Shown piece after piece: positions 1,648-52,577 of a DNA stretch of 56,796 bases. The translations under genes were made by a program, and so were the position numbers. Source of the DNA: an uncultured virus (IMG/VR IMGVR_UViG_3300022841_000008) (taxonomy: Duplodnaviria > Heunggongvirae > Uroviricota > Caudoviricetes); the IMG/VR virus record IMGVR_UViG_3300022841_000008, one strand, 5' to 3'. Position 1 is the first letter of the stretch, and every line of letters begins with the position of its first letter. A model generated the notes under the pieces. The model was not told the DNA's origin, did not search any database, and saw only the letters and a list, made by a program, of their open reading frames with translations.

Positions 1648-2364
1648 TTATCGCTTATTGGATTCTTGGAGACTCAATGTATCAAAGAACTCTTTCTTTG
1701 TACCTGGATCTTTATTAAACGCACCTTTAAGCACTGAAGTAGTTGTTGAACTATCGTGTGCCATTATGCCTCGGTTCTCACAACATCCATGAGTCATTCT
1801 TAAATATACACCTACGTTTTCTGAATCAGTTGCTTTACTAATTTCTCGAGCAATGTCATTACATAGTTCCTCTTGTAGGGTGCCACGGCGAGCGCACCAC
1901 TGAGCAATGCGAGTATACTTGCTAAGACCAATTAGTTTTTCTGCCGCAATAATGCCAATATAAGCAACCCCAGTAACGGGTTGGTGATGATGTGAACACA
2001 TACTACGAAGTTCACTGCGAACCACGAGCATGCCTTCGTAACGGTCTGCCGAATTGTTTGGAAATGCTGTTACGTCTGGTGCTGGATCATATCTGCCTGT
2101 CATGATTTCATTAAAGTACATTTTAGCAAGCCGCTTTGCAGTGCCTTTGCTATTTGGATCTGTTTCTCGATCAATAAGCAAGCGATCTAGCACACCTTCA
2201 AATGCTTCTGCTGCTTCGGTGATTAGTGTATCCTTTTCAACATCGCTAACGTATTCGCTGATGTTGTCTCCTGCCCAAAACCGTTTGTTATCGCGTTTGA
2301 GTTTGTCGCGGATAACCTGGCTTAGCGGTCTTCCGTCTTCTTCTCTATAATTCAATTGTGTCAA
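1648..2364 (-). CDS. folE: GTP cyclohydrolase I
   Basis: SMCSHHHQP, IGLSKYTRI, LQEEL, HGCCENRG; TTG start preceded by GGAGA. Confidence 0.95.
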   Translation of the reverse strand: MTQLNYREEDGRPLSQVIRDKLKRDNKRFWAGDNISEYVSDVEKDTLITEAAEAFEGVLDRLLIDRETDPNSKGTAKRLAKMYFNEIMTGRYDPAPDVTAFPNNSADRYEGMLVVRSELRSMCSHHHQPVTGVAYIGIIAAEKLIGLSKYTRIAQWCARRGTLQEELCNDIAREISKATDSENVGVYLRMTHGCCENRGIMAHDSSTTTSVLKGAFNKDPGTKKEFFDTLSLQESNKR

Positions 2365-18275: not shown

Positions 18276-18956
18276 TTATTTATCGCTTATAACGTAATTA
18301 TAAACCTTGCCCATAACATCGCTATTGCGTAGTTTAAGCATAAGCAGAGTTTGCTCATCTTCTACTAGCACATATCTACGATCCCAGTTCCATTCAGTAC
18401 GGATGAACCAACTTCTAACAGAATCTGTAAGAGTAATGCGGTTATTTTGCGCTGCAACCCAGGTTAGGTAATCTTGCTTGGCTTGAGGATCGCGTGCCAG
18501 TTGATGTGGCTTTAGGAATACTTTATATCTATATCTATCATGCGGCAGCTTTTTACTAAGGATAATGTGCTGATCGTTTAACAGTTCAATAGAGTTTTCA
18601 GAAGGCTCGCTACGATTTCTTACATTGGCTTCAAACTCTTTCAATACTGAAGAATAAAAATTGCGATCGTTAGTATACAGGTCCACGCAACCGTGTTCTA
18701 TACGTTGTGCCCACAATGTCTTGTCATAGTCTGATAAAAACTCAGCAACTGCTAACAGTTGAGCACGATTATTCCAGGCTCTTCCAGGAGTAGTCCACAT
18801 ACGCTCAGCAGGTTTTTCACTTAGATAAAAGTCTTGTATCTCACTTAACGTATGATTCCTAAGCATCCCTGCACCATTAATGTACAGGGATACTTTGTAA
18901 ACCCACTTGTTATAAAACTTCCGACGAGTTGTCTTGGCTTTCGGTAACATTAGCAT
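18276..18956 (-). CDS. hypothetical protein
   Basis: 226-aa ORF overlapping the 3' end of clpA. Confidence 0.75.
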   Translation of the reverse strand: MLMLPKAKTTRRKFYNKWVYKVSLYINGAGMLRNHTLSEIQDFYLSEKPAERMWTTPGRAWNNRAQLLAVAEFLSDYDKTLWAQRIEHGCVDLYTNDRNFYSSVLKEFEANVRNRSEPSENSIELLNDQHIILSKKLPHDRYRYKVFLKPHQLARDPQAKQDYLTWVAAQNNRITLTDSVRSWFIRTEWNWDRRYVLVEDEQTLLMLKLRNSDVMGKVYNYVISDK

Positions 18957-21279: not shown

Positions 21280-21312
21280 ATTTTGAATTATTCCTTAGTT
21301 TCTTTATAGTTA

Positions 21313-21342
21313 ATTGTAACACTGACAGCTATAGTATGTCAA
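21313..21342 (-). promoter_or_regulatory. sigma70-like promoter for clpA
   Basis: TTGACA-N18-TACAAT. Confidence 0.55.
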
Positions 21343-21346
21343 CAGG

Positions 21347-22183
21347 TTACAAGCCATCTTTTAATGTTTGTATTTTTTTAAGTTGATCTACTGATAAGTT
21401 TTTAGGAAAACTTACTTTGATCTTAATCAACAAATTACCTCTTACTTTTGATCGAATATTTGGTAATCCTTGCCCTCGACCACTTAATATCGTATCTGGT
21501 TGAGTACCACTTGGAATAGTAATACTAAGAGTTTTGTTATCGAGTGTTACAATTTCTACAGATGTGCCTAGTAATGCATCCCATACAGATATAGATCGTT
21601 CGATAGTTAGTGAGTCACCTTCGCGTTTAAATTCTGTATGAGGTCGAATGTATACGTTAACAATTAAATCTCCAGGTCTTGCAGCAGGCAATGAACTATC
21701 GCCCATTCCCTCATAACGAATTTGTTGCCCGTGTTCGATGCCTGCAGGGATAGATATATTAATAATCTTCTTTTGACCTCCTGGTATGCCAACTTCTGCA
21801 TTAAGGACTTTGCCTTGCAACACATCTCCAAGCATAATCTCAACATTAATATTAAAGCTCTTGTTTCGCGGTTGGGAACGTCGCTGCCCATTAAATCCAA
21901 AATTTGAAAACATTTCTTCCATGTTACCAGCATTAAAGTGAAACTCAAAAGGATTACCTCCTCCAAAGCCTCCACGCTGCTGATTGTTAGGATCTACACC
22001 TGCATCGACCATTTGTTTTTTACTTGGATCGCTGAGTACATTGTATGCTTCGCTGATACGTTTAAAGTCAGCTTCATTGCCTCCGCGATCGGGGTGATGC
22101 TTCATTGCCATACTTCTGTATGCTTTTTTAATGTCGTCAGCAGTTGCGTCTTGTTTTATACCTAGTGTAGAGTAATAGTCCAT
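21347..22183 (-). CDS. dnaJ: DnaJ-class chaperone (class B/CbpA-like, no zinc finger)
   Basis: J domain with HPD, G/F-rich region, C-terminal GDL...IPSGTQP. Confidence 0.93.
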   Translation of the reverse strand: MDYYSTLGIKQDATADDIKKAYRSMAMKHHPDRGGNEADFKRISEAYNVLSDPSKKQMVDAGVDPNNQQRGGFGGGNPFEFHFNAGNMEEMFSNFGFNGQRRSQPRNKSFNINVEIMLGDVLQGKVLNAEVGIPGGQKKIINISIPAGIEHGQQIRYEGMGDSSLPAARPGDLIVNVYIRPHTEFKREGDSLTIERSISVWDALLGTSVEIVTLDNKTLSITIPSGTQPDTILSGRGQGLPNIRSKVRGNLLIKIKVSFPKNLSVDQLKKIQTLKDGL

Positions 22184-32348: not shown

Positions 32349-32771
32349 TTACCCGATCTTAGATAAGTTTCCAGGCATAAAGTCTTCAGGATTAATATTC
32401 ATGCTGCTACCATGACTGTATTCTTGCCCGATATAAAAGTCACTTGGTTTTTCATCAGCAACAGCAATGACCGATGCTACTTCAACCTTCTGGAATTCTT
32501 TTTCGCCTTCACCGTCATCAATCTTAATCTTACGAGTCCATCGACCGTGCTCGATTAATACCCATTGGCCTACCTTGACATCAAGTTCACATGCATTACC
32601 AACTTTGTAGACTTCTGCCCAACGAGGCTTAACACCGTGTGCTTTACCGTCATCACTGCCAACAATGATGCCGCCACTAGACTTTTGTTCACCCATATCC
32701 ATATTGATTACTAGGATATCTTGCGCCAATGCGCGAACTTTAACTTTCTTAGCACTAAATGCAAATGTCAT
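32349..32771 (-). CDS. groES: GroES-like co-chaperonin
   Basis: EQKSSGGIIV mobile loop, AEVYKVG, DVKVGQWVL. Confidence 0.8.
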   Translation of the reverse strand: MTFAFSAKKVKVRALAQDILVINMDMGEQKSSGGIIVGSDDGKAHGVKPRWAEVYKVGNACELDVKVGQWVLIEHGRWTRKIKIDDGEGEKEFQKVEVASVIAVADEKPSDFYIGQEYSHGSSMNINPEDFMPGNLSKIG

Positions 32772-37612: not shown

Positions 37613-39085
37613 TTATACCAATGCTGCTATTGCTGTTTTAAATTCGGTAAAATCTGCACTTGCTGCTGCAATAGACTTTAATTGAGCTAAGTTAATAACT
37701 CTGCTGCCGTTAACTATTAATTCGTTTTCAATGTCCACATCACTGCTAAAAATTGTCTTAGGTGTTACAGTAATTGCTGAGCTGTCTGCACTATCAATTA
37801 ATGTAGTAAAGATATTTCCAGTCACAGCTCCTGTAACATTTCCACTGAATGTGCCGGCAGTTAAAATGTTTGTAGAAGGATCATATGTTAAACTAGTATC
37901 AGTTCTAACATTTTTGTTACCAGTTGCAGTGTCAACAAAAGCAAGATAGTGGACGGCTGCTGTTGAATCTGTAGCAATTAATGTAACTGTTGTAGCAGTA
38001 GTTGCGGTATCTGCATTGCCAATTACATTGCCGGTTACATTGCCAATTACATTGCCAGTTACATTGCCAAATAAGTCACCGTAGAATACACCATCAACCG
38101 CATCAACCATAATACTACTATTATCTGCAAATACTGACCCTGTTAAATCAAACACCGGATCAATTGTAAATGTTACGGTGTCTGTGCCAGCATTTTGACT
38201 AAGTGTTATACCTTGACCTGTTAAAAAGTTTAATACACCGTTAACACTGTTAGCTTCAAGCGGGCTTCCGCTTAGTCCATTAGTAGTCACATATCTAAAA
38301 GCATTACCTGCAGGAGCAGCGTTTGTAATTGTAACAATGCCTGTAGCTGCATCAGTTGACACAATTAATGCTGCTGATCCAGGTTCAACACTTAACACTC
38401 CAGTATTGGTTAATGCAACACCTCCGGTTGACGTACTTACATTGATACCTACACCTTGAGTTCTGCCACTTGGCAATGCTGTGGTATTTGTAAGACTAGT
38501 AACACCTGTGTTTGTAAAAGTTACGTTTCCTGTCGCACTGCTTACGCTAATACCTGTGCCTGCCGTAGCTGCAACAACTCCATTGTTATTGATTGTAATA
38601 GTCTCTGATGCAGAATCAACACCGAGTGTTATAGCTGTTCCAGAGTTTAGCCCAAAAGAATTGCTACCATCAATAGCAATGATAGAAAAATTATTATCAA
38701 CCTGTATTTCTTTAAAGAACGTTCTGTCTGGATCTTTAATTAGCAATCCATCTACTGTAGTTCCTGCCGGTAAATCTACGGTATATCCTATCCCTTTAAT
38801 ATGAGCAGTTCCTAACCATATGCCATTGATCGAATCTATATCGCTGTACTCGCCAAGATGGATAGATTTCCAATGATGAGTAGCATCTCCTATATTATAT
38901 AAATTATCAGTGGCCGGACTTATATTAGTATCTAACGATTCAAATGCAAGCGGAGCAAGACCAGAGCCGTCTCCAATAGTAGCAACAAGGATATCAAAAT
39001 TTTCATTAATCTTTGTAAATGCTTCTTGGACACTGCTCCACAATAGTGGAGGACTTCCTGGGTTTATATTATCGTTATATGCCAT
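37613..39085 (-). CDS. tail fibre-like protein
   Basis: AFTKINENF N-terminal motif; Thr/Gly-rich TNTGV and GNVT repeats. Confidence 0.7.
   Translation of the reverse strand: MAYNDNINPGSPPLLWSSVQEAFTKINENFDILVATIGDGSGLAPLAFESLDTNISPATDNLYNIGDATHHWKSIHLGEYSDIDSINGIWLGTAHIKGIGYTVDLPAGTTVDGLLIKDPDRTFFKEIQVDNNFSIIAIDGSNSFGLNSGTAITLGVDSASETITINNNGVVAATAGTGISVSSATGNVTFTNTGVTSLTNTTALPSGRTQGVGINVSTSTGGVALTNTGVLSVEPGSAALIVSTDAATGIVTITNAAPAGNAFRYVTTNGLSGSPLEANSVNGVLNFLTGQGITLSQNAGTDTVTFTIDPVFDLTGSVFADNSSIMVDAVDGVFYGDLFGNVTGNVIGNVTGNVIGNADTATTATTVTLIATDSTAAVHYLAFVDTATGNKNVRTDTSLTYDPSTNILTAGTFSGNVTGAVTGNIFTTLIDSADSSAITVTPKTIFSSDVDIENELIVNGSRVINLAQLKSIAAASADFTEFKTAIAALV
38014..38069. repeat. 12-bp coding repeat (GNV[T/I])
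   Basis: cattgcc recurs every 12 bp, five times. Confidence 0.85.
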
Positions 39086-42000
39086 TATGTTCTCCCTACT
39101 GCAATTTCAATAGTTCCAATATGATCACTATCGTACTCAACAAGTGCCTTGCCTACTACTGTACCAACTTTAACATCGGAACCGGCAGCAACAGCAACGC
39201 CTGATATTCTAGAAGTCACTAACATGTCTCCCTTTTTAATTTTACCAACTACTCGACATGGCACACGACCTTGTAGAGCCACTAAGTTTTTAAATCCTGG
39301 ACAAGCATCATACATAACAAACGCAGCAGTATCAGACACAACACCAGCAACTCTTGGATCGCCCTGCTTATCGGTTATAGTAACTTCCTTGTCACCACCA
39401 AACACTAATACAGTACCAACTTCATAGTCTTTATCACCTTCGTAGAATTCGGCCAAGTCGGCGGAGTAGGTTGATTGTAATCTAGATTCATTTGGGCTAG
39501 TTCCAGTTAATGTCCATCGTCCGGTAATAGTGCCGCTATCAGTATTACTGCCTGTAGTAATAGCTGTAGTTTGTATGCTTGAAACAGTAATCGGAGCAAA
39601 ACTAACACCGTTCTGTGTCTTGAAGATATGTGAATCATTCCAGTAGTTAGTTGTTTTATCTGTAGCAAGAGAACCATTAGATATTAGTATACCACCTCCA
39701 CTGTCGTATCCGTAGTATCTTAAGTACCCTCCAGTTGCAGTTGTAGCACCATCTATGGATAAGTTAGTATCGACTTTAACTTGAGAAATATCAATGTTAC
39801 GTCCGCCAAAGTCGCCATTACTATCTCTAGCAATTAGTTTACTTGCCTCAACACTTGCACTAGATCCAGCAGCAGCTTCGATCATTACATAGTCGCCGTC
39901 TGAGCTAGAGCTTGAACCGTTTGTTCTACGTAAAATACCAGTACCGCTATATTGATTTTTCTTAACCGCAAGGCCTAAATCAATTACGTTTGCAAATGTT
40001 ACTGCGCTTACATTAGCGGTATTTAACCCAGAATTGCCTAATACAGTCTTTGTAGCAATCTGTGCAATCTTTGTAATAACAAGTCCGTTATCCTTTACAG
40101 TTAGCCAACCATCAGTGGCAGTAAATTGCGCACTGTCAAAACTCGCTAGACCCAAATCAGCTTGAACAATACCTGTGGCATTAACACGAGCACTGGCAGC
40201 AGTCATTGCTAGTTTACTTTGCACAATTGCCGCATCTGATTTAACATCAGAGTTAATAATTGTATCGCTGTTAATCTGAATGTTTAAATCGCTACTGGTT
40301 CTAGTAGCAGTAACATCACCTGTGATAGTCACATTAATTGCTGCATCTCCAGATCCCGTAAACGATAATAGCTGTCCGGTTGTGGGTGTAGTAATTACTG
40401 TATTTTGAAAATTAGCAAAAGTTAAACTTTGTAAGTTAACAGCATCTTGGGGATTTACAGGATCTATAAGATTAGTAATCTTATTATTGTTGAGATTCAT
40501 CGGGCCTTTCATACCTAACTGTCCGTCTAGAGACATAAAGCCTCCGGAAACTGTTGGGATTAATTGACTCGCCGTTACTGTTCCGCCATCATGTGTTATA
40601 CCTAATCTTCGTTCGATATAGATACGTGCTGCATTTTCTGTTGGCACACTGTCAGTAGCATTGTCTGTAAAGCCACTGTCTGTTGAAAATTCACTTACTG
40701 GAACGCCTCGTTTAAAACCAATACCATCTAAGTTACTCAATGCAATTGACGCAGCAAATGTTACAGTACCTGTACCTTGATCGACTCGGAAGAATGGTCC
40801 AACACTGAAATTACCAAATTGGTCAGTGGTCACATAAAAGCAACGTCCAACATCTCGTTCATCAGTTTCTTGACTTGCGTTAACCGCGTTTACTGATGCT
40901 CCATAAATTTCGCTAGGATAGTTAGTATCTGCATAGGATCCTGTACCAATTTCTAACAAATCATGACTTGTTACACGAGTCAACGAAATACGAATAGTTA
41001 AACTACCAATAGCTCCGTTAGTTCTAATAGCCACTGCAGACTTAATTGTGTACGAATTTTGATAAGCAACTAGACTGTCGACTAACGGACGACTTAGAAC
41101 AAGTCTTGCATACGATTTATTGGTTACTGCTTCACTTTGATAATTGTCAATAATATATTCCTCTCCGAGGAACACAAATTTACTACCTGCTACTCTGCTT
41201 CTTTCCTGAGCAGCCACCGGAATTACAGCAAATGTTAAGTTGCCAACTTGCCCTGTTACTTTCCCGACAGTCTGTGTTCCTGATTGAGTCCCAGAAGTGT
41301 CTTGTGCATCACCTCCTGGAGAGAAACTAATCTGGAATTGGTCAGTAGTTAACCCGGCACTTATTACGTGAAAATTGTTATTAGAAGTTACTCCGGTAGG
41401 CAGCACTCCGGTACTTTCAAACTTAATAACATCGCCTGCAACGAACCCGTGAGCAACTAGACTAATTACACTAGGAGCTGCTATAGAAATAGTACAGGTT
41501 CTACCAGTTGGGTAATCGTCTGTAAAGTCACCAGGTTGGTATATTGTTAAGTCGTTGTAATTATAATTCTCTCTGGTAGTAGTTCTAGTCAACCCATAAA
41601 GTTCATAACCAAATGTTCCACTACCCAATGCAGTTACGGCTACTGGAGTCCCATTTTTTAACGTTGCTACCTTAAATTCAGTTTCAGTTAGACCGTCTGT
41701 AAGAACCCAATAAAATTGATTGTCATTTGTCAACGGCGTAGGCAATACTCCTGTGTAAGTTAATCCTACAGGAGTTCCAGCAGTTGTGGTTATAGCTGAA
41801 CCGCCAGGGGAGGCTGATAGTGTGAATGTTGTGGTACCATTAGTTGCAATGATATAGTAGACCACTTCATTAACGAACCCTGCAATACTACCAGTACCAC
41901 TGTTAAACCCGTTAATAGTAATGCTGTTGCCTACGACTAGTGTAGTTGCACTACAACTAAACTGTCCAGCAGTGCCAGTAATTATTACATTGCGTAGTAC

Positions 42001-45000
42001 TGGGTTAGATAATTGTAAGGTATAATTTTCTACTAGCTTGTGAGACTTAGCAGCTTGGATGTATAAGCTAGACCCGTCACCTAGTGTAGGACTAGCCCCG
42101 TCAACAGTTAGCGATAGATAGAATTGATTATATTCCGGAACGCCAATAACATAATATGTAGTGTCAGCAAGAAGACCGTTTGATGAACTTGTAGGAATAA
42201 CTACGTCGCCTACTCTTAATTTATGATTACCACTAGTGGTACACAAATTTGTAGCGATATCGGTAATTGTTAGTAATATTTTAAATACAGCTGGATCAGC
42301 AACAGTGACGCTTACATCATATGGCGCATTTGAATCTGCATACTGAGTAAACTGCAAAACTCGATAGACGTTATCTTCAGTCTCTCTTAGTTTTAAACCA
42401 GTTGATGGTCTAACAGCAACTTCAGCTAAATCTCCAGTAAGTAATATCTGTCCGTTGTTTCTAATGGTTAGTACTGTGTCATTCGGTACTTGTGCAAATA
42501 ATCCACCAATGGTAACCCCACCACCACCGCCAATGTTTAGTCTAGCAACACCAGCCGGCAAGTCAGCGGTTGTTACATTGCTGACTGGGTATCTATAAAT
42601 TATGCCGCCATGATCAATTTCTAATTCACTACTGCCTAACGGAGTATATTCATATCCGTACACAAAGATGAATAAGCCATCTATTGTATTTGCATAAGTT
42701 GCTGATGGAAAATAACACTTAGCTCGTTGACTAAATTCTTCATAAACTGTAGTTGGTGTTGGAACTTCTAATGGATCCGCCCCTTCTGCAACTAGGGCAT
42801 AATTACCATGGGCACTTGACCCACCAACACTTCGAATCTGTCCACCATTGATAGAATAGTATGAAATATGGCAGTAGTAGGTAAACATTGACACAGCTTC
42901 AATCAATCCGCCGTTTGTTGCCACTAGACCGTATCCTAAATCGTTAATTTGTGTAAAGTCATTTGACAGCATAGAACGGTTGCCAGGCATCAACAATTCA
43001 TACTTACGTTGATAAGCAAATGTTCCAGTACCGCTTGATGTTGTAGCAACTTTTACAATTGATCCAAACGTTGCAGTTATGTTAAAGGTGTTATTGGTTA
43101 GACCGTCGGCAACTACATAATATTCTTTGTCTGCAATAATACCTGCAGGCAACCCGCCACCTGCACTTACTGAAAATATAATAGTAGCACCTGGTTGAAG
43201 TCGGTGCTCAACAACAGTAATAACAGCCGGATCACCATTGCTAATAGTACATGTTTGGCCACCAGCAGCCCTAATAAATGGTGTAGTTTCATCTAATACA
43301 AATGTAGCAGTTGAGCCAGCTGTACTGTACACAAAGTCTCTAACATAGTTAATACGGAATACACTATCATCTACCAAGAAGCTAGCTGGCAGTTTAGGTA
43401 AACGCTCAAGGCCGCTTACTGTTAGTCTGGTAAATGTAGCATCTGATGCCGTGTGATCAAATTGCAAGTTACCGGTAAACCCGTCAACAAACTTGCCGCC
43501 TGCAAACACTTGTCTATTAGTTGATTGTGAAAAGCTGGCACACTCTTGAGCGTACGGAGACTTAGCCTGAACTTGCCCTTCAGGGTCAAGCACCAACATA
43601 AAGCCACCGTGTCCCTGCGCAGTAATTGCCTGCCAGCGGCAAGCATCGTTTGCAAGGAAAACGTCCATCTGATTGTTTTCTTTAGGATAGTTTACACTTC
43701 CTGACCCATCCATTACATCTTTAATGGCTGTGATTAAATCAGTTATTACCGTATCTGCATTAATTTCGGCAGCAAATGCTCTATCAATAGTTTGTGGATA
43801 CAGTAATTGATAAGTTGTTGCAACTGCGGTATTAGTAATGACCTGTTGAATTAACTCGTTTAGGTGATCTATTGATGCTAGTGTTTCTGATAGTTGAGTA
43901 GTAATAGCAATACGAGCACTAGCACTTTGATAATATTTTAAACCAGCCGATATGGTTCTATTGTAATCACCGTATTCTAAGTCAAAAGTTAGGGCATCAA
44001 TAATTAACCCAATGTCTCGTTTGCACAGATTAACATCATATTCGAAGGCAGTTGTAAACGGAGCTACATTATTAGCTATTTGATTAGCTATCCATCCGCT
44101 TACTTCTTCTTGCATGAACGAGCGATTTAATTGTATCAATGCGCTAGCCGCAATATAGTCACCTGGATTATTAATCTTTGGATACACTGGCTGACTTGGA
44201 TCTTGAAGATAATGATAACCGAATGGCGAGTCAACCGCAGTAGTTAATCCGTCAATTACAAGATCTCTACGGAACTTTCGGAAGGCCCATGGACTTGAAC
44301 TAGTTCCTATTCTTGGTCTAACAATACAACGACGAAATTCATTACCTACAATAGATACATTTTGTGGAACCTTTAGAGGATAATTTTCTTCGTAAACTCC
44401 ACTTTCGACTAGAATAGTGATTTGAATACTTTTAGTAACGTCGCCGTATGCAACCGGTTCATCGATCTCAAACGCTCCTACCTTAATATCAACGTCAAAT
44501 AATTCGTTACCTAAACTATCAAGTGAGCCGTCGTGTGCTAAAATTTGAGCCAATGCTCCGCTATTTTCGCCACGTAAGAATAAGCCTTCGCGGATGTCTC
44601 GACCTCGAATTGCTTGCGGAGTATTAGTAGTGACATCACCAGTGAAGTCTGTTCGTTGACCGTCTGTGAAGATAGCAAATCGAGGAAGGTTAACTTCTAA
44701 TGAGGGCAACGTAGTAAATCCAGAACCTTGATCTGTAATAGTAACACTAGAAATAGTGCCACCACTAACCACAGCGGTACCAAATGCACCAGCACCACTA
44801 CCTCCGGCAATTCGAACAGAAACTAAACTATACCCAGATCCCACATTTGTAATACTAATACTATTAACTTTATACGTAATATTAAACGTTGCGCCGGCAC
44901 CAATTGCACTAATTCCTGCTGGTGCAGCCGATGTACTAATAGTTGTTGCATTACCAACTGCACCAGGCAACCCTGAATATACTCCAGTTGAAATAATCCT

Positions 45001-46122
45001 AAAAGTTGAAATAGCCCCGGGAGTAGTTAATGTGGATAACACTTCAATAGTCGCAGCAGCGCCGCCGACTGGAATAGCGCCTCCGGTAACTGTTAAAATA
45101 TCTCCAACAAAGTAGTTGGTACCGACACTGTTAATTACTAACGTGTCCACACTCATTCGGACTTCGCCTGCAAATCCTGAACCGGATTCGGGACTTGTTT
45201 CGATACTTGATAATGTACAAGTATTAACACCATTATCGTAGGTTAATAGTTTCTTGTATGGGCCAATCTCTAGCTTTGATTCTAATACTAACTCTTCAGC
45301 TCGGCGAAGTGCTGCTTCTAATGTTTTATAGGCATATGCTAATGCACGACCTTGTAGTGCTTTACTAACACCAACTCGAGCATCTTGCCCAGAGGTTGCA
45401 ACATACAAGTTTGCCACGCTACCAAAAGATGAATTATCGACATATCGTTTTGTTGCAGCAACAAGACCGTTGTAGTTAACGTCGTCATCTGGTTCCGGAT
45501 CTCGAGAAAGAATTAGCGGACCGCCCATACGTCCAAATGCAGAACTTACTAACCCTGTTGCTGGGTCGATAGCAGTTGCTCCGCCTAGTGAAATTTTGCC
45601 GTCAACATATCCTTTGTTAGCAGCTAATCTAACGGCTGTTGATGCAGACTCATTATGATCTGCTGAAAGCTGCTCTCTAGCATCGATAACTTCAGCTTGA
45701 ACACGCAGATCTGGCAGGTTGCCAATAGGGTGTATTTTACCGCCGAAGAATGCATTTAGTGATCCTCCTAGCGCCGGAAACGTGTCTGATGAAATTGACG
45801 AGAACGCTGAGTTAAGAGTAATTTCATTTTCGTTGGTAGTATAGTCAATAGTAATACCTGTTCCGCCTTTTAGAGACTTGAACGTGACTCCTGACTCGGT
45901 ATTGTTAACTGTTACTAGTGGAGTAAGCCCAGTTTCTGGATCATTCTGTCCAACATACGAAACTGGAGAATCATCTAATCCAATAAAGGTTAGTTTTTCA
46001 CCGAGTCCAAGTGAACTGTATAGTTCTCTAAAGTTGTCGTTTACTTTTCTAAACGAGTCGCGAATACTATCGCCTGTGCCGTCGTTACCTACAACGCCTA
46101 CGTCAATTTGTTTACGGGCCAT
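39085..46122 (-). CDS. giant tail fibre/tailspike (2345 aa) with a C-terminal intramolecular chaperone (peptidase G2-like) domain
   Basis: gp10-like N-terminus (IDVGVVGNDGTGDSIRDSFRKVNDNFRELY); repeated H-L-G-F-LP-G-YYV beta modules; C-terminal ADLAEFY...VAGVVS...VALQGRVP. Confidence 0.8.
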   Translation of the reverse strand: MARKQIDVGVVGNDGTGDSIRDSFRKVNDNFRELYSSLGLGEKLTFIGLDDSPVSYVGQNDPETGLTPLVTVNNTESGVTFKSLKGGTGITIDYTTNENEITLNSAFSSISSDTFPALGGSLNAFFGGKIHPIGNLPDLRVQAEVIDAREQLSADHNESASTAVRLAANKGYVDGKISLGGATAIDPATGLVSSAFGRMGGPLILSRDPEPDDDVNYNGLVAATKRYVDNSSFGSVANLYVATSGQDARVGVSKALQGRALAYAYKTLEAALRRAEELVLESKLEIGPYKKLLTYDNGVNTCTLSSIETSPESGSGFAGEVRMSVDTLVINSVGTNYFVGDILTVTGGAIPVGGAAATIEVLSTLTTPGAISTFRIISTGVYSGLPGAVGNATTISTSAAPAGISAIGAGATFNITYKVNSISITNVGSGYSLVSVRIAGGSGAGAFGTAVVSGGTISSVTITDQGSGFTTLPSLEVNLPRFAIFTDGQRTDFTGDVTTNTPQAIRGRDIREGLFLRGENSGALAQILAHDGSLDSLGNELFDVDIKVGAFEIDEPVAYGDVTKSIQITILVESGVYEENYPLKVPQNVSIVGNEFRRCIVRPRIGTSSSPWAFRKFRRDLVIDGLTTAVDSPFGYHYLQDPSQPVYPKINNPGDYIAASALIQLNRSFMQEEVSGWIANQIANNVAPFTTAFEYDVNLCKRDIGLIIDALTFDLEYGDYNRTISAGLKYYQSASARIAITTQLSETLASIDHLNELIQQVITNTAVATTYQLLYPQTIDRAFAAEINADTVITDLITAIKDVMDGSGSVNYPKENNQMDVFLANDACRWQAITAQGHGGFMLVLDPEGQVQAKSPYAQECASFSQSTNRQVFAGGKFVDGFTGNLQFDHTASDATFTRLTVSGLERLPKLPASFLVDDSVFRINYVRDFVYSTAGSTATFVLDETTPFIRAAGGQTCTISNGDPAVITVVEHRLQPGATIIFSVSAGGGLPAGIIADKEYYVVADGLTNNTFNITATFGSIVKVATTSSGTGTFAYQRKYELLMPGNRSMLSNDFTQINDLGYGLVATNGGLIEAVSMFTYYCHISYYSINGGQIRSVGGSSAHGNYALVAEGADPLEVPTPTTVYEEFSQRAKCYFPSATYANTIDGLFIFVYGYEYTPLGSSELEIDHGGIIYRYPVSNVTTADLPAGVARLNIGGGGGVTIGGLFAQVPNDTVLTIRNNGQILLTGDLAEVAVRPSTGLKLRETEDNVYRVLQFTQYADSNAPYDVSVTVADPAVFKILLTITDIATNLCTTSGNHKLRVGDVVIPTSSSNGLLADTTYYVIGVPEYNQFYLSLTVDGASPTLGDGSSLYIQAAKSHKLVENYTLQLSNPVLRNVIITGTAGQFSCSATTLVVGNSITINGFNSGTGSIAGFVNEVVYYIIATNGTTTFTLSASPGGSAITTTAGTPVGLTYTGVLPTPLTNDNQFYWVLTDGLTETEFKVATLKNGTPVAVTALGSGTFGYELYGLTRTTTRENYNYNDLTIYQPGDFTDDYPTGRTCTISIAAPSVISLVAHGFVAGDVIKFESTGVLPTGVTSNNNFHVISAGLTTDQFQISFSPGGDAQDTSGTQSGTQTVGKVTGQVGNLTFAVIPVAAQERSRVAGSKFVFLGEEYIIDNYQSEAVTNKSYARLVLSRPLVDSLVAYQNSYTIKSAVAIRTNGAIGSLTIRISLTRVTSHDLLEIGTGSYADTNYPSEIYGASVNAVNASQETDERDVGRCFYVTTDQFGNFSVGPFFRVDQGTGTVTFAASIALSNLDGIGFKRGVPVSEFSTDSGFTDNATDSVPTENAARIYIERRLGITHDGGTVTASQLIPTVSGGFMSLDGQLGMKGPMNLNNNKITNLIDPVNPQDAVNLQSLTFANFQNTVITTPTTGQLLSFTGSGDAAINVTITGDVTATRTSSDLNIQINSDTIINSDVKSDAAIVQSKLAMTAASARVNATGIVQADLGLASFDSAQFTATDGWLTVKDNGLVITKIAQIATKTVLGNSGLNTANVSAVTFANVIDLGLAVKKNQYSGTGILRRTNGSSSSSDGDYVMIEAAAGSSASVEASKLIARDSNGDFGGRNIDISQVKVDTNLSIDGATTATGGYLRYYGYDSGGGILISNGSLATDKTTNYWNDSHIFKTQNGVSFAPITVSSIQTTAITTGSNTDSGTITGRWTLTGTSPNESRLQSTYSADLAEFYEGDKDYEVGTVLVFGGDKEVTITDKQGDPRVAGVVSDTAAFVMYDACPGFKNLVALQGRVPCRVVGKIKKGDMLVTSRISGVAVAAGSDVKVGTVVGKALVEYDSDHIGTIEIAVGRT

Positions 46123-46515: not shown

Positions 46516-46776
46516 ATGATCGGATTTATTAAAAAACTATTTGGCGTTAAGTCACCAGAAGCAACAACGCCAGTTATCAACCCCGCAGTAGACGCAGCTA
46601 ATTCAGCACCGTATAAAGTACCAGAGCCCGCAGCTATTACACCAATTCCGCTAGTAGCCAAAATTACGCCAAAGAAAAAGCCGGTACCTAAAAAGCAACA
46701 ATTTGCTAAGAAAGCACCAGCTGTTAAAGCACCAGCTAAAAAGACAGTACCAAAAAAATCAAAGCCCGCGGCTTAA
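46516..46776 (+). CDS. hypothetical protein with a Lys/Ala/Pro-rich tail
   Basis: AGGAG RBS; MIGFIKKLFG amphipathic start; KKAPA repeats. Confidence 0.75.
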   Translation: MIGFIKKLFGVKSPEATTPVINPAVDAANSAPYKVPEPAAITPIPLVAKITPKKKPVPKKQQFAKKAPAVKAPAKKTVPKKSKPAA

Positions 46777-47784
46777 TCGCTGTTGGTATAAAGTAGAACT
46801 CGAAATATTTTTACCTTTTGATTCACACATAATATCGTGTGTATCTGAAAAGCTCAGAGCCCAATCGTTCACTGCTGTATTCCAGTAAAAGTTCGAGTGT
46901 GCTCGGAGCTTTTGCTTTTTGTAGCCCTGTGTTAATAGAGATGGAAGATCAGGAATGATATTCTCAGGGTGATCGACTAACCAGTCTTCTCGTGATACAC
47001 TATAATGAATAACAGGGCGGACACCGCGCCAGCTATCGATCACACGCTTACATCTATCGTCGGAGGCTTGAATGTACTCTCCTGTACGGATCCAGTGGTG
47101 GTGTATGTCAAGCACAAGGGCGCAGTGCTTTTCAAGTTCGAGACTGCTTTCGATTCCCCAACACATTTCGTCGTTTTCGATAGTGATACAGTTTCTTGCT
47201 TCTGGGGACAATCTTGGGAGGACGTCGATAATACCTTGGGGACCTTTTCGACCCGATATGTGTACATTGATCTTAAAGTCCTGGAAACTCTTGCCGTATC
47301 CCATCCAGCGAACCATGTCTGTATGATATTCAAATTCCTCTATAGATCTCTCTACAATCTCCGGAGTTTCTGATGCTAGTACAGTAAACTGGCCGGGATG
47401 CATAGATAAGCGAACATTCTTCTTTCGAGCTAACTCGCCAACTTCTCCAAATGCTTTTTCGCAATATGCTCGTACATCGGCACTCTTCCAATACTTACCC
47501 CAAACTGACTGAGTATAAACAGGAAGGATATCGCTGCTGAGCCGTACCATTCTAAGATTTTCATCAAGGTCTCCTACGCGATCAACCAGCTTGCGAACTG
47601 CTTCGATATTGCCTACCATTAGATCATAGAGCTTTTGTTCTGCTACTTGCTTTGTTTGTCTATTTAACCAGGCCACTGTAGTGCTGCCTGTGTTCAATGC
47701 CTTGCATTCGTCCGTAGGTTTAATCCCTTTTATTTGATCAGGGCGATCAATCCATTTACAAGCAAAGCCAATTCGTTTAATCAT
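46759..47784 (-). CDS. uvsE: UV damage repair endonuclease
   Basis: RIGFACK, RLSSDILP, RLSMHPGQF, IEND, LDIHHH, HS, MCESKGK. Confidence 0.93.
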   Translation of the reverse strand: MIKRIGFACKWIDRPDQIKGIKPTDECKALNTGSTTVAWLNRQTKQVAEQKLYDLMVGNIEAVRKLVDRVGDLDENLRMVRLSSDILPVYTQSVWGKYWKSADVRAYCEKAFGEVGELARKKNVRLSMHPGQFTVLASETPEIVERSIEEFEYHTDMVRWMGYGKSFQDFKINVHISGRKGPQGIIDVLPRLSPEARNCITIENDEMCWGIESSLELEKHCALVLDIHHHWIRTGEYIQASDDRCKRVIDSWRGVRPVIHYSVSREDWLVDHPENIIPDLPSLLTQGYKKQKLRAHSNFYWNTAVNDWALSFSDTHDIMCESKGKNISSSTLYQQRLSRGL

Positions 47785-48642: not shown

Positions 48643-49426
48643 CTACAAATTTATCTTTAACATCCTGCGGTTTTGGATCACCGTGGAATACTGTGACACA
48701 ACAGTCTTTTGGAGGATCAATTGAGTTTTGGGTTGTTTTGAATTGTCGCTTGCCGTTTAATACTACGAGCTCTTCTCGACTGCGTATTTCCCACTTGTAA
48801 CTCTGTATCCAGGTCTTTGGCCAAAACTTAATACGGTCTTTTGCCAACTTCCAAATCCAATCTTGATCCCCGGGAAGTTTCATAGCAGCTTTTGGATCTG
48901 CCTTAAATTGTTCCCAGATAAAGTTTTGAGTTCCGTGGTTCCAGCACATAGTGGAACTGTTTAGGCTATTCCAATTTGCATAAAACTTTCTGTTAAAATC
49001 GTGGATGCCTAAAAAATCATTAGATCTTTCAGTAACTAATTTATCAATATTATTGTGTATAACAATGTCTAGATCAAAGTATAAAATTCTGCCCGATAAC
49101 GAAAGAGCAGGATCGAACATGTGAACTTTATGCCACCAACCTCGAGCATAGTTTGCATTTGGTTGTACAATACTTCTAACACCTTCTATACACTGGTGAT
49201 CATCAGTTAGACAAACAAACTCGTACGGAACGGTCATATGTCTAGAGACCATATTTCTAAGTCTTTCTACATACTCCCGTCCGTATCGCGTACCAAATCT
49301 AACACAGATAACAGTTACTTTAGTTAAACAACTAGCATCAACAGTAGTAGTTGGCTGACTAACTTCGACCAATTTAGCCAAACTTTTCCTCAGTCGTTTT
49401 TGTTCTTTAGTTTCCAGTATTACCAA
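48626..49426 (-). CDS. GT-A fold glycosyltransferase-like protein
   Basis: FVCLTD, GWWHKVHMF, DxD motif YFDLD, NSS, GDQDWI, VFHGDPKP. Confidence 0.75.
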   Translation of the reverse strand: MVILETKEQKRLRKSLAKLVEVSQPTTTVDASCLTKVTVICVRFGTRYGREYVERLRNMVSRHMTVPYEFVCLTDDHQCIEGVRSIVQPNANYARGWWHKVHMFDPALSLSGRILYFDLDIVIHNNIDKLVTERSNDFLGIHDFNRKFYANWNSLNSSTMCWNHGTQNFIWEQFKADPKAAMKLPGDQDWIWKLAKDRIKFWPKTWIQSYKWEIRSREELVVLNGKRQFKTTQNSIDPPKDCCVTVFHGDPKPQDVKDKFVVDNWK

Positions 49427-49464
49427 TGTCTAACTACTCCTGCAATAATAAACCACCGTGTTCA

Positions 49465-49914
49465 TTAAGCCTCGTAAACTGCGCTGTTGGAACCATGTTC
49501 TGCGCACTCAACTCGTACACAATAACAACGATTATTAGTCTTTTCGCGTATCAGTGCGTCGGCAAAGTTGAATGCATGTTCTGCAAACTTCTCTGCACCT
49601 ACACCATCAAAGATTCTAATCTCTACCAGATCTAATGCTTCTAGTTCTTTAAATTTTTCTAAATGTGGATCTTGTTTATCCAATGCCAGTTTGTGATCAA
49701 AGTGATCTTCGAGCCATGCCTTAAGCGGTTTAAGTCCACCGAAGTCTACTGCCCAGTTCTTGTCATCTAATTTATCACATCCAAAGGTAAATGTAAACGC
49801 TAAACTGTAACCATGTAACAAATGACAGTGACTGTGATCTGCGTTAGGTTGACGGAATACCGCTGACAGCCCAATGTTGTGTCCGTAATGTTTTATTGAA
49901 TAAAATTTTGCCAT
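49465..49914 (-). CDS. queD: 6-carboxy-5,6,7,8-tetrahydropterin synthase
   Basis: HCHLLHGY, VDFGGLK, FDH, GAEKFAE, ECAEHGSNSA. Confidence 0.88.
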   Translation of the reverse strand: MAKFYSIKHYGHNIGLSAVFRQPNADHSHCHLLHGYSLAFTFTFGCDKLDDKNWAVDFGGLKPLKAWLEDHFDHKLALDKQDPHLEKFKELEALDLVEIRIFDGVGAEKFAEHAFNFADALIREKTNNRCYCVRVECAEHGSNSAVYEA

Positions 49915-50007
49915 CTCTAGTCTCCTTAATGAATGAGCAAGTTTGACGACATGCAGAGTTTATATAGCGGGATGAATGACGTAGAAGTCCGCTGTGTGTA
50001 TGTGTTA
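49915..50007 (-). promoter_or_regulatory. structured 5' leader of queD (riboswitch-like candidate)
   Basis: About 90-nt UTR with an AGCGG/CCGCU stem, an A-rich tail, a second stem and a duplicated UCAUUCAU. Confidence 0.45.
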
Positions 50008-50013
50008 TGTACT

Positions 50014-50042
50014 ATTATATAGTACCGGTATTTATAAGTCAA
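50014..50042 (-). promoter_or_regulatory. sigma70 promoter with an embedded TATAAATA late promoter for queD
   Basis: TTGACT-N17-TATAAT; the spacer begins TATAAATA. Confidence 0.75.
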
Positions 50043-50646
50043 CCTTAAAGTTGTCCAATGATATGAAATCTACATTAGGTCTCTTCCACATTGGAGGTAG
50101 CTGCCACTTAGATTCATTAACTACTGTAAATGTAGTTTCTGGAAAGTGTTTAAACACTTTTGATATTTGATAGACCCAATAGTTGTAGTCTACAGCCTGC
50201 GTATCTGGCTTAGAATAGTTTTGGGTACCTTTGTACAAATTATTGACTTTATTGTTCATTGGATAAAGATCGAACCCAACTAAGGAAATATTTTTGTATC
50301 CTAGACTAGCAGCTAGTAATATTGCGTATCCACCACTGCCCCAATGTGATGGTTGATCTTTTTTTTCTTCTCCCGTGTAAGGCAGAGAAGGAACGAGATG
50401 TGTTCGTTTGTCTTTTTGTATCTTTCGATAGTACTTGAACCAATCTTCCCTAACATAGATAAGAGTATACTTTGTATTAGGACTGCTAACCGCTTCCTCT
50501 ACCATACGTCTATCGCAACAGACAAGATGATCCATTATTGCATCGCGATGAATAGCATTACATCCGATAAGAGTGTTAGATGATTTTAATAAAGAAGGGT
50601 CAATGTTTTTACGGCTTTCGCCATTGCCAAATACTACAGCATTCAC
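50032..50646 (-). CDS. Rossmann-like glycosyltransferase (sialyltransferase/Maf-like) protein
   Basis: VVFGNGESR, IGCNA, LVCCD, SGGYAILLA, ISLVGFD. Confidence 0.55.
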   Translation of the reverse strand: MNAVVFGNGESRKNIDPSLLKSSNTLIGCNAIHRDAIMDHLVCCDRRMVEEAVSSPNTKYTLIYVREDWFKYYRKIQKDKRTHLVPSLPYTGEEKKDQPSHWGSGGYAILLAASLGYKNISLVGFDLYPMNNKVNNLYKGTQNYSKPDTQAVDYNYWVYQISKVFKHFPETTFTVVNESKWQLPPMWKRPNVDFISLDNFKVDL

Positions 50647-50647
50647 T

Positions 50648-51490
50648 TTATTTTATTTCGCCGAATGGATTCCACATACCAGGATTCCCACCCTTAATGC
50701 AGATCCACCCTACATATCCTCTAGGCTGTGGGTTTGAATTCCAAACAATGTCACCTTGATTATAGCTGCCGCTATCCGGATAAGCTCTGCCTTTTAAGTG
50801 CAGAGTATCATTAAATTTAATTGCGCCACCTACATGTAACTCTGCACGTGGATCAATAGTTCCTACATTAATTCCTAAAGACCCAGTTACAGTAACTTTA
50901 ATTGGCCCATTATTTTTATTACCTAATTCAATATCGCCGCCGGCTTTGACAATTAATCGAGCAGTGTTATCAGTTACTATTTCTAAATCAGCACTGTTAA
51001 AGGTGCCTATACCTCCTTTAGTACTTTGTCTAGATCCCAAAACAAGTTCAACACCTTCGTCAGCAATGCTAAAGGCTGCATTAGGTTGGTCAGTGCCAAG
51101 CCCTAATCTATCAGCAGTTGCATTAAAAAACAAATAACTGTTAACGCTGAACCCGCCATCGACTACTAGTCCTTTTAATCGACCGACTTCACGAAGATTA
51201 CTTTTAGTAATGCTTGCTCCCAGAGCCTTATCACTAAGAACCTCAACTCCATCAATTGATAATGTTTTATTTTTAGCAAGCACAATAGATTCAGAACTAA
51301 AAAACTGATTAGGTTGATATACAAACTGTTTTGTGTTTCCGCTGCCTGCCCAAATTAGTCCCTTGCCTTCGATGTCGCCGTTAAACTTTAAGTAAGATAA
51401 CTCAACAATGTTAGTGTCTTGATTTTTTGTAGCAAGGATATCTTTAAGAAGTACTGCTAACGAATCTATATTTTGATCTTGAGTGGCCAT
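50648..51490 (-). CDS. virion (tail) protein, paralog 2
   Basis: Closely similar to 51492..52577; C-terminal GDIVWNSNP...GWIC...PG-W-PFG. Confidence 0.7.
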   Translation of the reverse strand: MATQDQNIDSLAVLLKDILATKNQDTNIVELSYLKFNGDIEGKGLIWAGSGNTKQFVYQPNQFFSSESIVLAKNKTLSIDGVEVLSDKALGASITKSNLREVGRLKGLVVDGGFSVNSYLFFNATADRLGLGTDQPNAAFSIADEGVELVLGSRQSTKGGIGTFNSADLEIVTDNTARLIVKAGGDIELGNKNNGPIKVTVTGSLGINVGTIDPRAELHVGGAIKFNDTLHLKGRAYPDSGSYNQGDIVWNSNPQPRGYVGWICIKGGNPGMWNPFGEIK

Positions 51491-51491
51491 T

Positions 51492-52577
51492 TTAATTTCC
51501 AATTTTACCAAACGGAGCCCATATTCCTGGACTGCCTGCTTGCACACATACCCACCCAATAAACGTATTTTGTTTAGGTTCCGAGTTCCAAACTATATCA
51601 CCTTGATTGTATGCACCTGCTGTGGGATATGCTCTGTCATACTTTTGAAGTTTGCCATTAAATTTAACAGCACCATTAACGTGTAGATCAACTTCTGGAT
51701 CTGGCATAGCTACTTTGATTGATAGCCTACCGTGAACACTAACCTGCACTGGCGGTCGATCCGTATTACCTAATTGAATGCTACCATTGGCACTAATACC
51801 AATCCTTGATGTGTTGTCTGTTACAATATCAACTGCATGACTAGCAAAGGTTCCCACTACTCCTCGATTTTCTTTAGTCCCAATTAGAACTTCAATTCCG
51901 TCTTCGGCAACACTTAGCGCAGCATTAGGTTGATCAGTACCGAGCCCCAGACGATCAGCAGTACCGTTAAAGAACATATAGTTGTTAACACTTAGTGATC
52001 CGTCAACTAACAATCCTTTTAATCGACCAACTTCGCGAAGATTACTTTTAGTGACACTTGCACCTAGTTCGATACCGTCCAACACTTTAACGCCGTTCAT
52101 GGACAAATACTTGTCTTTAGCAATATCAATTATTTCTGAACTAAAAAATTTGTCAGGTCCGCTATTAAACACAAACTGTTTAGTGGATCCCTGACCTTTC
52201 CATAACAGTCCCTTACCGTAAACTTCTTTACCAGCAAATGTTACAGATTGATCTTTTTCATATTGTATGTTAGCTTTTAATTGCTTTACTTCGAGGACAT
52301 CGACTATAATGGTGTTAGCAGTTAACGAGTCAACTGTACCGTTAATTATAATGCCGCTATCTGTAATAACAAGTTGTTCTTTAGTTGCAGAATCAGTAAT
52401 CCCGGCACTGGCAAACTTTAGTATTTTTCCGCCAGCAATATGATCTCCACTAAGCGCTCGCTTGGGAAGTTGGCTAGCTAGTTCTAGCGGAGTAAGTGAT
52501 TTAACAACGTTCGGTTCTTGGCTTTTTAGGGCATCGCCGAGGGCTGCAAGTGCTTGATCAAGGTTCTTATTGTTCAT
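51492..52577 (-). CDS. virion (tail) protein, paralog 1
   Basis: Late promoter upstream; LGLGTDQPNA tail-fibre-type repeats. Confidence 0.7.
   Translation of the reverse strand: MNNKNLDQALAALGDALKSQEPNVVKSLTPLELASQLPKRALSGDHIAGGKILKFASAGITDSATKEQLVITDSGIIINGTVDSLTANTIIVDVLEVKQLKANIQYEKDQSVTFAGKEVYGKGLLWKGQGSTKQFVFNSGPDKFFSSEIIDIAKDKYLSMNGVKVLDGIELGASVTKSNLREVGRLKGLLVDGSLSVNNYMFFNGTADRLGLGTDQPNAALSVAEDGIEVLIGTKENRGVVGTFASHAVDIVTDNTSRIGISANGSIQLGNTDRPPVQVSVHGRLSIKVAMPDPEVDLHVNGAVKFNGKLQKYDRAYPTAGAYNQGDIVWNSEPKQNTFIGWVCVQAGSPGIWAPFGKIGN

What the first reader, a model, noticed from the sequence alone, without database searches (positions are those of the whole stretch)
49915..50042. Long structured leader upstream of queD: candidate riboswitch-like RNA
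Seen: a UTR of about 90 nt in an otherwise tightly packed genome. It reads AGCGG-ACUUCUACGUCAUUCAUC-CCGCU-AUAUAAAC, then GCAUGU-CGUCAA-ACUUGC, then a second UCAUUCAU just before the AAGGAGA RBS; CGUCA also occurs twice. The 5-bp stem with a C before its 3' strand and an A-rich tail recall preQ1-I aptamers, but the loop is longer and the canonical P2 is absent. Structured leaders on both folE and queD suggest metabolite-level control of the pathway. The gene has both early and late promoter motifs.
Basis: partly seen in the sequence, partly recalled or inferred. Interest (0 to 1): 0.7.

Follow-up and report, generated by a model that had tools for sequence, protein, structure and literature searches.

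The report
Phage queD-leader pseudoknot riboswitch candidate
The leader before this uncultured phage's queD-like gene folds into a small RNA pseudoknot that hundreds of uncultured phages keep through compensating base changes; it looks like a new relative of the preQ1 riboswitch, apparently wired to switch translation on.

Summary
They form part of a 48-nt H-type pseudoknot (49993-49946) in the leader of a QueD/PTPS-family gene.

Structure: P1 is paired in 99% of cells, and 4 of 5 pairs show compensatory change. One P2 pair is A-U or G-C in at least 120 viral contigs each, while the mismatched forms are nearly absent (1 each).

Distribution: the motif sits almost only upstream of QueD-like genes. 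I found it in no isolate genome and in 0 of 6 cultured phages checked. It matches no Rfam 15 family, preQ1-I/II/III included.

Mechanism: the 3' strand of P2 is also complementary to the start codon region, or to the SD in other variants. Forming the knot should therefore free the RBS, which predicts a translational ON switch. The ligand is unknown and untested.

Context: ten large relatives lack recognisable QueC and TGT/DpdA, so preQ1 is not assured.

This scan has noted the same motif on other DNA (at least 8 notes).

The parts
50037..50042 (-). -35-like hexamer TTGACT
   Evidence: TTGACT-17-TATAAT, 11 of 12 matches. This is a consensus match only. Many relatives have TTGAC(A/C)-17-TATAAT ending a few nt before P1.
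50014..50019 (-). -10-like hexamer TATAAT; the inferred transcription start lies near 50007
   Evidence: The start site is inferred, not shown.
50029..50036 (-). TATAAATA, a T4-late-promoter-like word overlapping the stop codon of the upstream ORF
   Evidence: Read directly. TAAATA-type words recur upstream of P1 in relatives. That this is the T4 late consensus is recalled, not tested.
49989..49993 (-). P1 5' strand AGCGG
   Evidence: Pairs with 49966-49970. In A2, 99.3% of cells are paired and 4 of 5 pairs show changes on both sides.
49983..49988 (-). L1 ACUUCU (second nt C invariant, third U nearly so)
   Evidence: Invariant and near-invariant columns of A2. L1 is longer in variants with a longer P2.
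49973..49982 (-). P2 5' strand: ACGUCAU (P2a), then U49975 (faces C49953), then C49974 and A49973 (P2b)
   Evidence: The core P2a pairs show CG/GC/GU/AU alternation. The P2b pair A49973-U49955 is A-U or G-C across viral contigs.
49971..49972 (-). L2 UC; C49971 is invariant and sits directly 5' of the P1 3' strand
   Evidence: Invariant column in A2. It occupies the same position as the specificity cytosine of preQ1-I (review PMC11625349, section 4).
49966..49970 (-). P1 3' strand CCGCU
49956..49965 (-). L3 AUAUAAACUC (A-rich; A49959, U49957 and C49956 invariant)
49946..49955 (-). P2 3' strand: UG (P2b), then C49953 (mismatch), then AUGUCGU (P2a)
49945..49951 (-). Anti-start strand UGUCGUC; overlaps 6 of the 7 nt of the P2a 3' strand
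   Evidence: Pairs with 49909-49915. The helix is part of the window's nested MFE and is conserved in 78 leaders.
49921..49927 (-). Shine-Dalgarno AAGGAGA
   Evidence: Read directly; lies 6 nt before the ATG.
49909..49915 (-). GAUGGCA: the start codon (49914-49912) and flanks, partner of the anti-start strand
49465..49914 (-). QueD-like gene (149 aa, PTPS family, CxxxHGY motif)
   Evidence: Pfam PTPS 3.8e-14. NCBIfam QueD TIGR03367 scores 34.4 bits, below its 89-bit cut-off.

Best explanation
A cis-acting H-type pseudoknot aptamer sits in the 5' leader of the phage's QueD-like gene. It is probably a riboswitch of a kind not yet catalogued, related in layout to preQ1-I.

Shown: P1 (5 bp) and P2 (7 bp with one U.U, then a conserved U.C mismatch, then C-G and A-U) are conserved with compensatory changes. 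Invariant unpaired bases cluster at the P1/P2 junction (C49971, L1 NCU, L3 A..UC). The element is tied to QueD-family genes across divergent phages.

Shown: the P2 3' strand (UGUCGUC) is also complementary to GAUGGCA around the start codon. Other variants pair it with the start codon or the SD through at least five different platform designs.

Inferred: without ligand the anti-start helix forms and blocks initiation. A ligand that stabilises the knot captures that strand and frees the RBS, so translation switches on.

Inferred: the ligand has a guanine-like face that pairs with C49971. My rough odds are a 7-deazaguanine (preQ0, preQ1 or CDG) about 0.35, a pterin such as the QueD substrate or product about 0.25, another small molecule about 0.15, and no small-molecule ligand about 0.25.
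For: Relatives: a search with the QueD-like protein found 598 encoding stretches of 600 candidates, and the best 80 were kept. Of these, 78 carry the leader motif and 2 are cut off upstream. They give 63 distinct leaders.

Covariation on a MAFFT alignment not fitted to structure (A2, 59 distinct rows): 87.3% of cells paired against shuffles at 67.4 +/- 1.2 (0 of 500 reach it), and 34-55% when partners are slid. P1 is 99.3% paired. With P2b added the figure is 89.2%.

Four-pattern test of pair A49973-U49955 in viral contigs. The A-U form gave at least 120 stretches, and 80 of 80 fetched match model R1. The G-C form gave at least 120, and 78 of 80 match. The A.C form gave 36 hits, of which 1 is real. 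The G.U form gave 5 hits, of which 1 is weak.

Gene link: 79 of 80 A-U loci and 64 of 65 real distinct G-C leaders precede a QueD-like ORF that is 34-93% identical to the window's. Identical leaders precede proteins only about 38% identical. The window has one copy (57.4 bits, next best 14.1), and 5 of 5 near-complete relatives have one strong copy each.

Switch: the duplex between the P2 3' strand plus flank and the RBS averages -8.25 kcal/mol, against -4.77 for shuffled strands. In 75 of 146 leaders at most 5% of shuffles reach the observed value. Helix pairs are 88-100% kept in 78 leaders, and one pair alternates C-G (44) with U-A (24). RNAalifold finds the helix in platform types A, B and C. 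In the window the anti-start duplex is -9.0 and P2 is -4.2 kcal/mol, and the nested MFE contains the anti-start helix. No terminator-like site lies in the leader.
Against: No ligand binding or regulation has been measured. No Rfam family matches, including the preQ1 classes, so the preQ1 analogy rests on layout only. An ON switch on a biosynthetic gene does not fit end-product feedback. Ten large relatives, six of them at least 93% complete, show no Pfam QueC or TGT/DpdA, so a phage-encoded route to preQ0 or preQ1 is not evident. The window's own P2 has two mismatches and is weak by nearest-neighbour energy. The 3' side of the anti-start helix is coding sequence, so most of its conservation is not independent evidence (shuffles already give 75.0% against the observed 79.7%). 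The accessibility gain seen on withholding the aptamer is biased by construction. The sequences are related, so cell counts are not counts of independent events.
Confidence: 0.6

Rival explanations
1. An ordinary preQ1-I riboswitch acting as an OFF switch. PreQ1 binds, the knot forms, and translation of queD is repressed as end-product feedback.
For: The layout is the same: H-type knot, 5-bp P1 topped by G-C, a C (mostly UC) directly before the P1 3' strand, and an A-rich L3 (review section 4). The gene belongs to the queuosine/7-deazaguanine pathway family.
Against: Rfam RF00522 and the class II and III models give nothing at E <= 10 on the window or on 12 variant loci. P2 is 10 positions long, not 3-4 bp, and contains no SD bases; the SD lies 18 nt beyond the knot. 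L1 reads NCU rather than UU, and L3 ends in an invariant UC. The knot and the RBS-blocking helix compete for the same strand, which predicts ON.
Confidence: 0.1
2. A protein-binding translational operator. A phage or host protein recognises the pseudoknot and sets queD translation, as with other pseudoknot operators (T4 gene 32 and ribosomal protein S15 are recalled examples, not checked here).
For: The invariant single-stranded bases (NCU, UCA, A-YUCUGC) could equally be protein contacts. The phage genomes are large and encode many unknown proteins. ON/OFF competition with the RBS suits an operator as well.
Against: The RNA stays nearly constant in front of QueD-like proteins only 34-47% identical to the window's, and in phages with very different contig sizes and sample types. 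This argues against autoregulation by the product and would require a co-conserved binder that has not been identified. Strict linkage to one metabolic enzyme gene, with modular platforms, is the usual riboswitch pattern.
Confidence: 0.15
3. A ligand-independent structural element. The pseudoknot tunes translation, mRNA stability or temperature response without sensing a metabolite.
For: Two competing folds with modest energies could act as a thermometer or a folding timer. No ligand is known.
Against: The conservation of unpaired junction bases goes beyond what two helices need. The exclusive link to QueD-like genes is hard to explain for a generic tuning element.
Confidence: 0.1

Closest known systems
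preQ1-I riboswitch (Rfam RF00522; types I-III as reviewed in PMC11625349, section 4 read)
   Same: H-type pseudoknot. 5-bp P1 closed by G-C. An invariant C directly 5' of the P1 3' strand, preceded mostly by U as in type I. An A-rich L3 that would lie along P1. Sits in front of a gene of the queuosine/7-deazaguanine pathway family.
   Different: 48-52 nt rather than about 34. P2 spans 7-10 positions with a conserved U.C mismatch, against 3-4 bp. L1 is NCU(n), 4-8 nt, rather than UU. L3 ends in an invariant UC. P2 holds no SD bases. The expression platform is separate and predicts ON rather than OFF. No match to the Rfam model. Seen only in phage-like contigs.
preQ1-III riboswitch (Rfam RF02680)
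   Same: The RBS lies away from the aptamer (review outline heading).
   Different: No match to the Rfam model. Its fold is larger (recalled). I did not read that section of the review.
Translational ON riboswitches such as the add adenine riboswitch, and precursor- or alarmone-sensing ON classes (ZTP, PRPP, ppGpp); all recalled, not checked here
   Same: The logic is shared: the ligand-stabilised aptamer captures a strand that otherwise pairs with the SD or start codon. There is precedent for ON control of biosynthetic genes by a precursor signal.
   Different: The folds are unrelated, and the ligand here is unknown.

Membership tests
preQ1-I riboswitch (RF00522) | H-type pseudoknot with P1 and P2 supported by covariation | tested here: met
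preQ1-I riboswitch (RF00522) | Specificity cytosine directly before the P1 3' strand, preceded by U (type I) or A (types II and III) | tested here: met
   C49971 is invariant in 63 of 63 rows of A2. The preceding base is mostly U, sometimes C or A.
preQ1-I riboswitch (RF00522) | A-rich L3 following P1 | tested here: met
   L3 is NNANAAAYUC with conserved A's, but it is 10 nt long and ends in an invariant UC.
preQ1-I riboswitch (RF00522) | Match to the family covariance model | tested here: not met
   No hit at the gathering threshold, and none at E <= 10 on the window or on 12 variant loci.
preQ1-I riboswitch (RF00522) | Short P2 that buries SD bases, or is coupled to a terminator, giving gene-off | tested here: not met
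   P2 spans 10 positions and contains no SD base. The SD is 18 nt downstream. There is no terminator. The competing helix predicts ON.
preQ1-I riboswitch (RF00522) | Binds preQ1 or preQ0 | not testable with these tools
   Needs ITC or in-line probing.
Riboswitch (general) | Conserved aptamer joined to varied expression platforms, in front of functionally related genes | tested here: met
   One aptamer with platform types A, B, C, short forms and anti-SD forms. A QueD-like gene lies downstream in 79 of 80 and 64 of 65 cases.
Riboswitch (general) | Direct ligand binding that changes expression | not testable with these tools
QueD (6-carboxytetrahydropterin synthase), the regulated gene | Match to the QueD equivalog model above its cut-off, and the CxxxHGH motif | tested here: not met
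   TIGR03367 scores 34.4 bits against a cut-off of 89.25. The motif reads CHLLHGY; the HGH form of the motif is recalled. The protein is a PTPS-family member by Pfam and 44-51% identical to annotated phage QueD proteins.

The most novel reading that the evidence does not exclude
This is a new riboswitch class found only in viruses. The compact pseudoknot senses a guanine-faced metabolite, perhaps not preQ1 at all but a pterin or 7-deazaguanine intermediate. It switches ON translation of a QueD-like enzyme in phages that lack the rest of the known preQ0/DpdA route. That would point to an undescribed phage use of the GTP-to-pterin/deazapurine branch under RNA control.
Probability: 0.5. Interest if true: 0.85.

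Novelty: new variant of a known kind. Interest (0 to 1): 0.78.

Why it matters
Riboswitch classes confined to phages are, to my knowledge, not established, and I found no ON-acting relative of preQ1-I in print. A 48-nt aptamer with hundreds of natural variants and several natural expression platforms is a ready system for ligand discovery and for study of pseudoknot switching. It also flags an unexplained metabolic module: FolE plus a QueD-like enzyme, sometimes with a QueE-like enzyme, but without recognisable QueC or DpdA, in large aquatic phages. Eight searches of the held papers found no description of it, and it is not in Rfam 15.

Tried and rejected
1. Single-sequence folding gave z = -0.18 and no signal.
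2. Rfam gave nothing relevant; only chance miRNA and snoRNA rows above E = 1.
3. blastn of the locus and of the leader against GenBank phages gave no match at 1e-5. At E <= 10, 9 records matched. The one followed up, in Aeromonas phage AhSzq-1, is not the motif (4.2 bits).
4. The six cultured phages with the closest QueD proteins that I fetched have no motif (best score 9 bits, off-site). Four have no usable gap before queD.
5. The window's own assembly is not held. The nearest record is a 29-kb fragment and told nothing about the pathway.
6. The first MAFFT alignment (A1) put P2 out of register for part of the rows. The aptamer-only alignment A2 fixed this without structural fitting.
8. A second copy of the motif on folE or elsewhere in the window is rejected.
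9. The weak QueC hit in one relative is an NAD synthase.
10. Withholding the aptamer raised RBS accessibility in 128 of 146 leaders, but the test is biased, so I do not lean on it.
11. RNA-library contigs from two studies cover 49835-49998 and 49835-49978. Contigs cannot show a start, a strand or transcription.
12. Literature: eight searches found no description. One listed paper only cites a preQ1 review.

Full report
WHAT IS THERE. The genes here run on the minus strand. The ORF at 49465-49914(-) encodes a 149-aa PTPS/QueD-family protein (Pfam PTPS 3.8e-14). NCBIfam's QueD model scores it below its cut-off, and it is 44-51% identical to annotated phage QueD proteins. The upstream ORF ends at 50032, which leaves a 117-nt gap. 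The gap opens with TTGACT-17-TATAAT (50042-50014, 11 of 12 matches) and TATAAATA (50036-50029). Folding this sequence alone is unremarkable (z = -0.18). Rfam 15 reports nothing at the gathering threshold or at E <= 10.

COMPARISON WITH RELATIVES.
- A search of viral contigs with the protein found 598 encoding stretches among 600 candidates. The best 80 were kept (87-100% identity).
- Of these, 78 carry a recognisable leader and 2 are cut off upstream. They give 63 distinct leaders.
- On a plain MAFFT alignment of the aptamer (A2), P1 (window 49993-49989 with 49970-49966) is paired in 99.3% of cells, with changes on both sides at 4 of 5 pairs (GCGG/CCGC, GAGG/CCUC, CCGG/CCGG, GUGG/CCAC and others).
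- A second helix joins the P1 loop to the sequence after an almost invariant YUCUGC. In the window it is ACGUCAU (49982-49976) with AUGUCGU (49952-49946).
- The core pairs of this helix alternate freely. One column pair reads CG 27, GC 19, GU 9, AU 1, other 3.
- The whole structure is 87.3% paired, against 67.4 +/- 1.2 in shuffles (0 of 500 reach it) and 34-55% when partners are slid.

EXTENSION OF P2. Beyond a conserved U.C mismatch (49975 facing 49953), C49974-G49954 and A49973-U49955 can also pair. I tested the last pair with four pattern scans of viral contigs.

| Form of the pair | Pattern hits | Confirmed by model R1 |
|---|---|---|
| A.C | 36 | 1 |
| G.U | 5 | 1, weakly |

This is clean covariation for the pair.

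Invariant unpaired bases sit at the junction of the two helices: C49971 directly before the P1 3' strand, the C and U of L1, and A..UC at the end of L3.

DISTRIBUTION AND GENE LINK.
- The window has one copy (57.4 bits; next best 14.1 bits inside an ORF). Nothing matches at folE, whose gap is 42 nt.
- Five near-complete relatives of 320-367 kb have one strong copy each.
- Among A-U loci, 79 of 80 precede a QueD-like ORF. Nine are 74-93% identical to the window's protein and 70 are 34-52% identical. In the remaining locus my script called no ORF.
- Identical leaders precede proteins only about 38% identical.
- In the G-C set, 64 of 65 real distinct leaders precede a QueD-like ORF. One of these is a canonical CxxxHGH type.
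- In 596 Gb of prokaryote genomes a stricter pattern hit 16 places. Eight are real by R1, all on MAG contigs. Six were confirmed upstream of QueD-like ORFs by blastp; the other two loci end just after the start codon. No isolate genome matched, although the pattern allowed only G-N-G-G forms of P1.
- Six cultured phages with the closest QueD proteins lack the motif.

HOW IT PROBABLY WORKS.
- No terminator-like site lies in the leader. The SD (49927-49921) is 18 nt past the knot.
- The strand UGUCGUC (49951-49945) shares 6 of its 7 nt with the P2 3' strand. It is complementary to GAUGGCA (49915-49909), which contains the start codon.
- This helix is part of the window's nested MFE when folded from the inferred start. 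It is stronger by nearest-neighbour energy (-9.0 kcal/mol) than the mismatched P2 (-4.2).
- Across 146 leaders the corresponding duplex averages -8.25 kcal/mol, against -4.77 for shuffled strands. It lands on positions -1 to +6 in about 60-65% of leaders and on the SD region in about 30%.
- In 78 leaders that are not type C, the six core pairs are kept in 88-100% of rows. One pair alternates C-G (44) with U-A (24) between platform types.
- Type C leaders instead form CCUAUG-loop-CAUAGG, which shares its first two bases with the P2 3' strand and its last bases with the SD.
- G-C-class leaders have ACUCC...GGAGU or CCUC...GAGG designs.
- All designs make the knot and the RBS-blocking helix compete for one strand. 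If a ligand stabilises the knot, as in other pseudoknot riboswitches, translation goes on. That step is inferred.

WHICH LIGAND.
- The layout recalls preQ1-I: a specificity-type C preceded by U, an A-rich L3, and a G-C at the top of P1 (criteria from section 4 of PMC11625349).
- The size, L1, the end of L3, the length of P2 and the direction of switching all differ, and the family model does not match.
- The genomic context weakens preQ1. Ten large relatives, six at least 93% complete, show no Pfam QueC or TGT/DpdA, and one weak QueC hit is an NAD synthase.
- FolE is present in 5 of 5 relatives examined, and in three of the five it lies about 0.4-4 kb upstream of the leader.
- One relative has a QueE-like radical SAM gene next to queD, with five QueE models as its best hits, all below their cut-offs.
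- An ON switch suits a precursor or a signal better than an end product. Pfam may miss divergent DpdA proteins.

WHAT IS NOT SUPPORTED. The hairpin GCAUGU-CGUCAA-ACUUGC, the repeated UCAUUCAU, and a structured folE leader.

EARLIER NOTES OF THIS SCAN. After I had formed this reading I found at least 8 notes on other genomes describing the same leader pseudoknot with the same interpretation. They are not independent evidence. One of them led me to the review.

LIMITS. The sequences are related, so counts of cells are not counts of events. CM E-values are rough. Nothing here measures ligand binding or expression.

Noticed in passing
window 50008-50024 (-): A perfect palindrome, GTACTAT-ATA-ATAGTAC, overlaps the -10 hexamer. 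Relatives have different palindromes at the same place (for example GTAATAT-A-ATATTAC, ACTAGTATACTAGT, CACTAT-A-ATAGTG). It may be an operator for a dimeric regulator.
   Followed up: no
relatives G002-G011 (loci L018, L059, L040, L034, L043, L264, L267, L308, L316, L262): None of 10 large contigs, 6 of them at least 93% complete, has a Pfam QueC or TGT/DpdA match, although they carry FolE and the riboswitch-QueD unit. The fate of the QueD product is unexplained.
   Followed up: partly
relatives G002-G006: These jumbo phage genomes hold 3 to 17 radical SAM matches each (16, 3, 10, 14, 17), some in clusters. The genes near queD include sugar-nucleotide enzymes, HIT and cytidylyltransferase-like proteins, and a B12-binding radical SAM protein.
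   Followed up: no
window 49465-49914 (-): The QueD-like protein and its phage relatives read CxxxHGY where the canonical motif, as I recall it, is CxxxHGH. One riboswitch-linked gene (L289) has the HGH form.
   Followed up: no
window 50648-51559 (-) and 51492-52577 (-): Two adjacent ORFs (303 and 361 aa) are paralogues with near-identical C-terminal halves (..GDIVWNS..GW.C..G.PG.W.PFG.I..). They overlap by 68 nt and have no Pfam match.
   Followed up: no
window 1648-2364 (-) and 657-1154 (-): folE starts with TTG after a 42-nt gap and has no match to the queD-leader model. A phosphoribosyltransferase-domain gene lies just downstream. A cultured cyanophage pairs an XGPRT gene with QueD and FolE.
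   Followed up: partly
window 49300-50700: Runs labelled salt lake metagenome hold this stretch: 22 of 24 listed rows hold half or more of its sampled words, and many may be the source sample. Relatives' contigs in two RNA libraries cover only the leader and the 5' end of queD with few differences.
   Followed up: partly
window 18910-22183 (-), 32349-32771 (-), 39085-46122 (-), 46759-47784 (-): The phage encodes ClpB-like, DnaJ-like and Cpn10-like chaperones, a 2345-aa ORF with a T4 gp9/10-like N-terminus, and a UvdE UV endonuclease.
   Followed up: no
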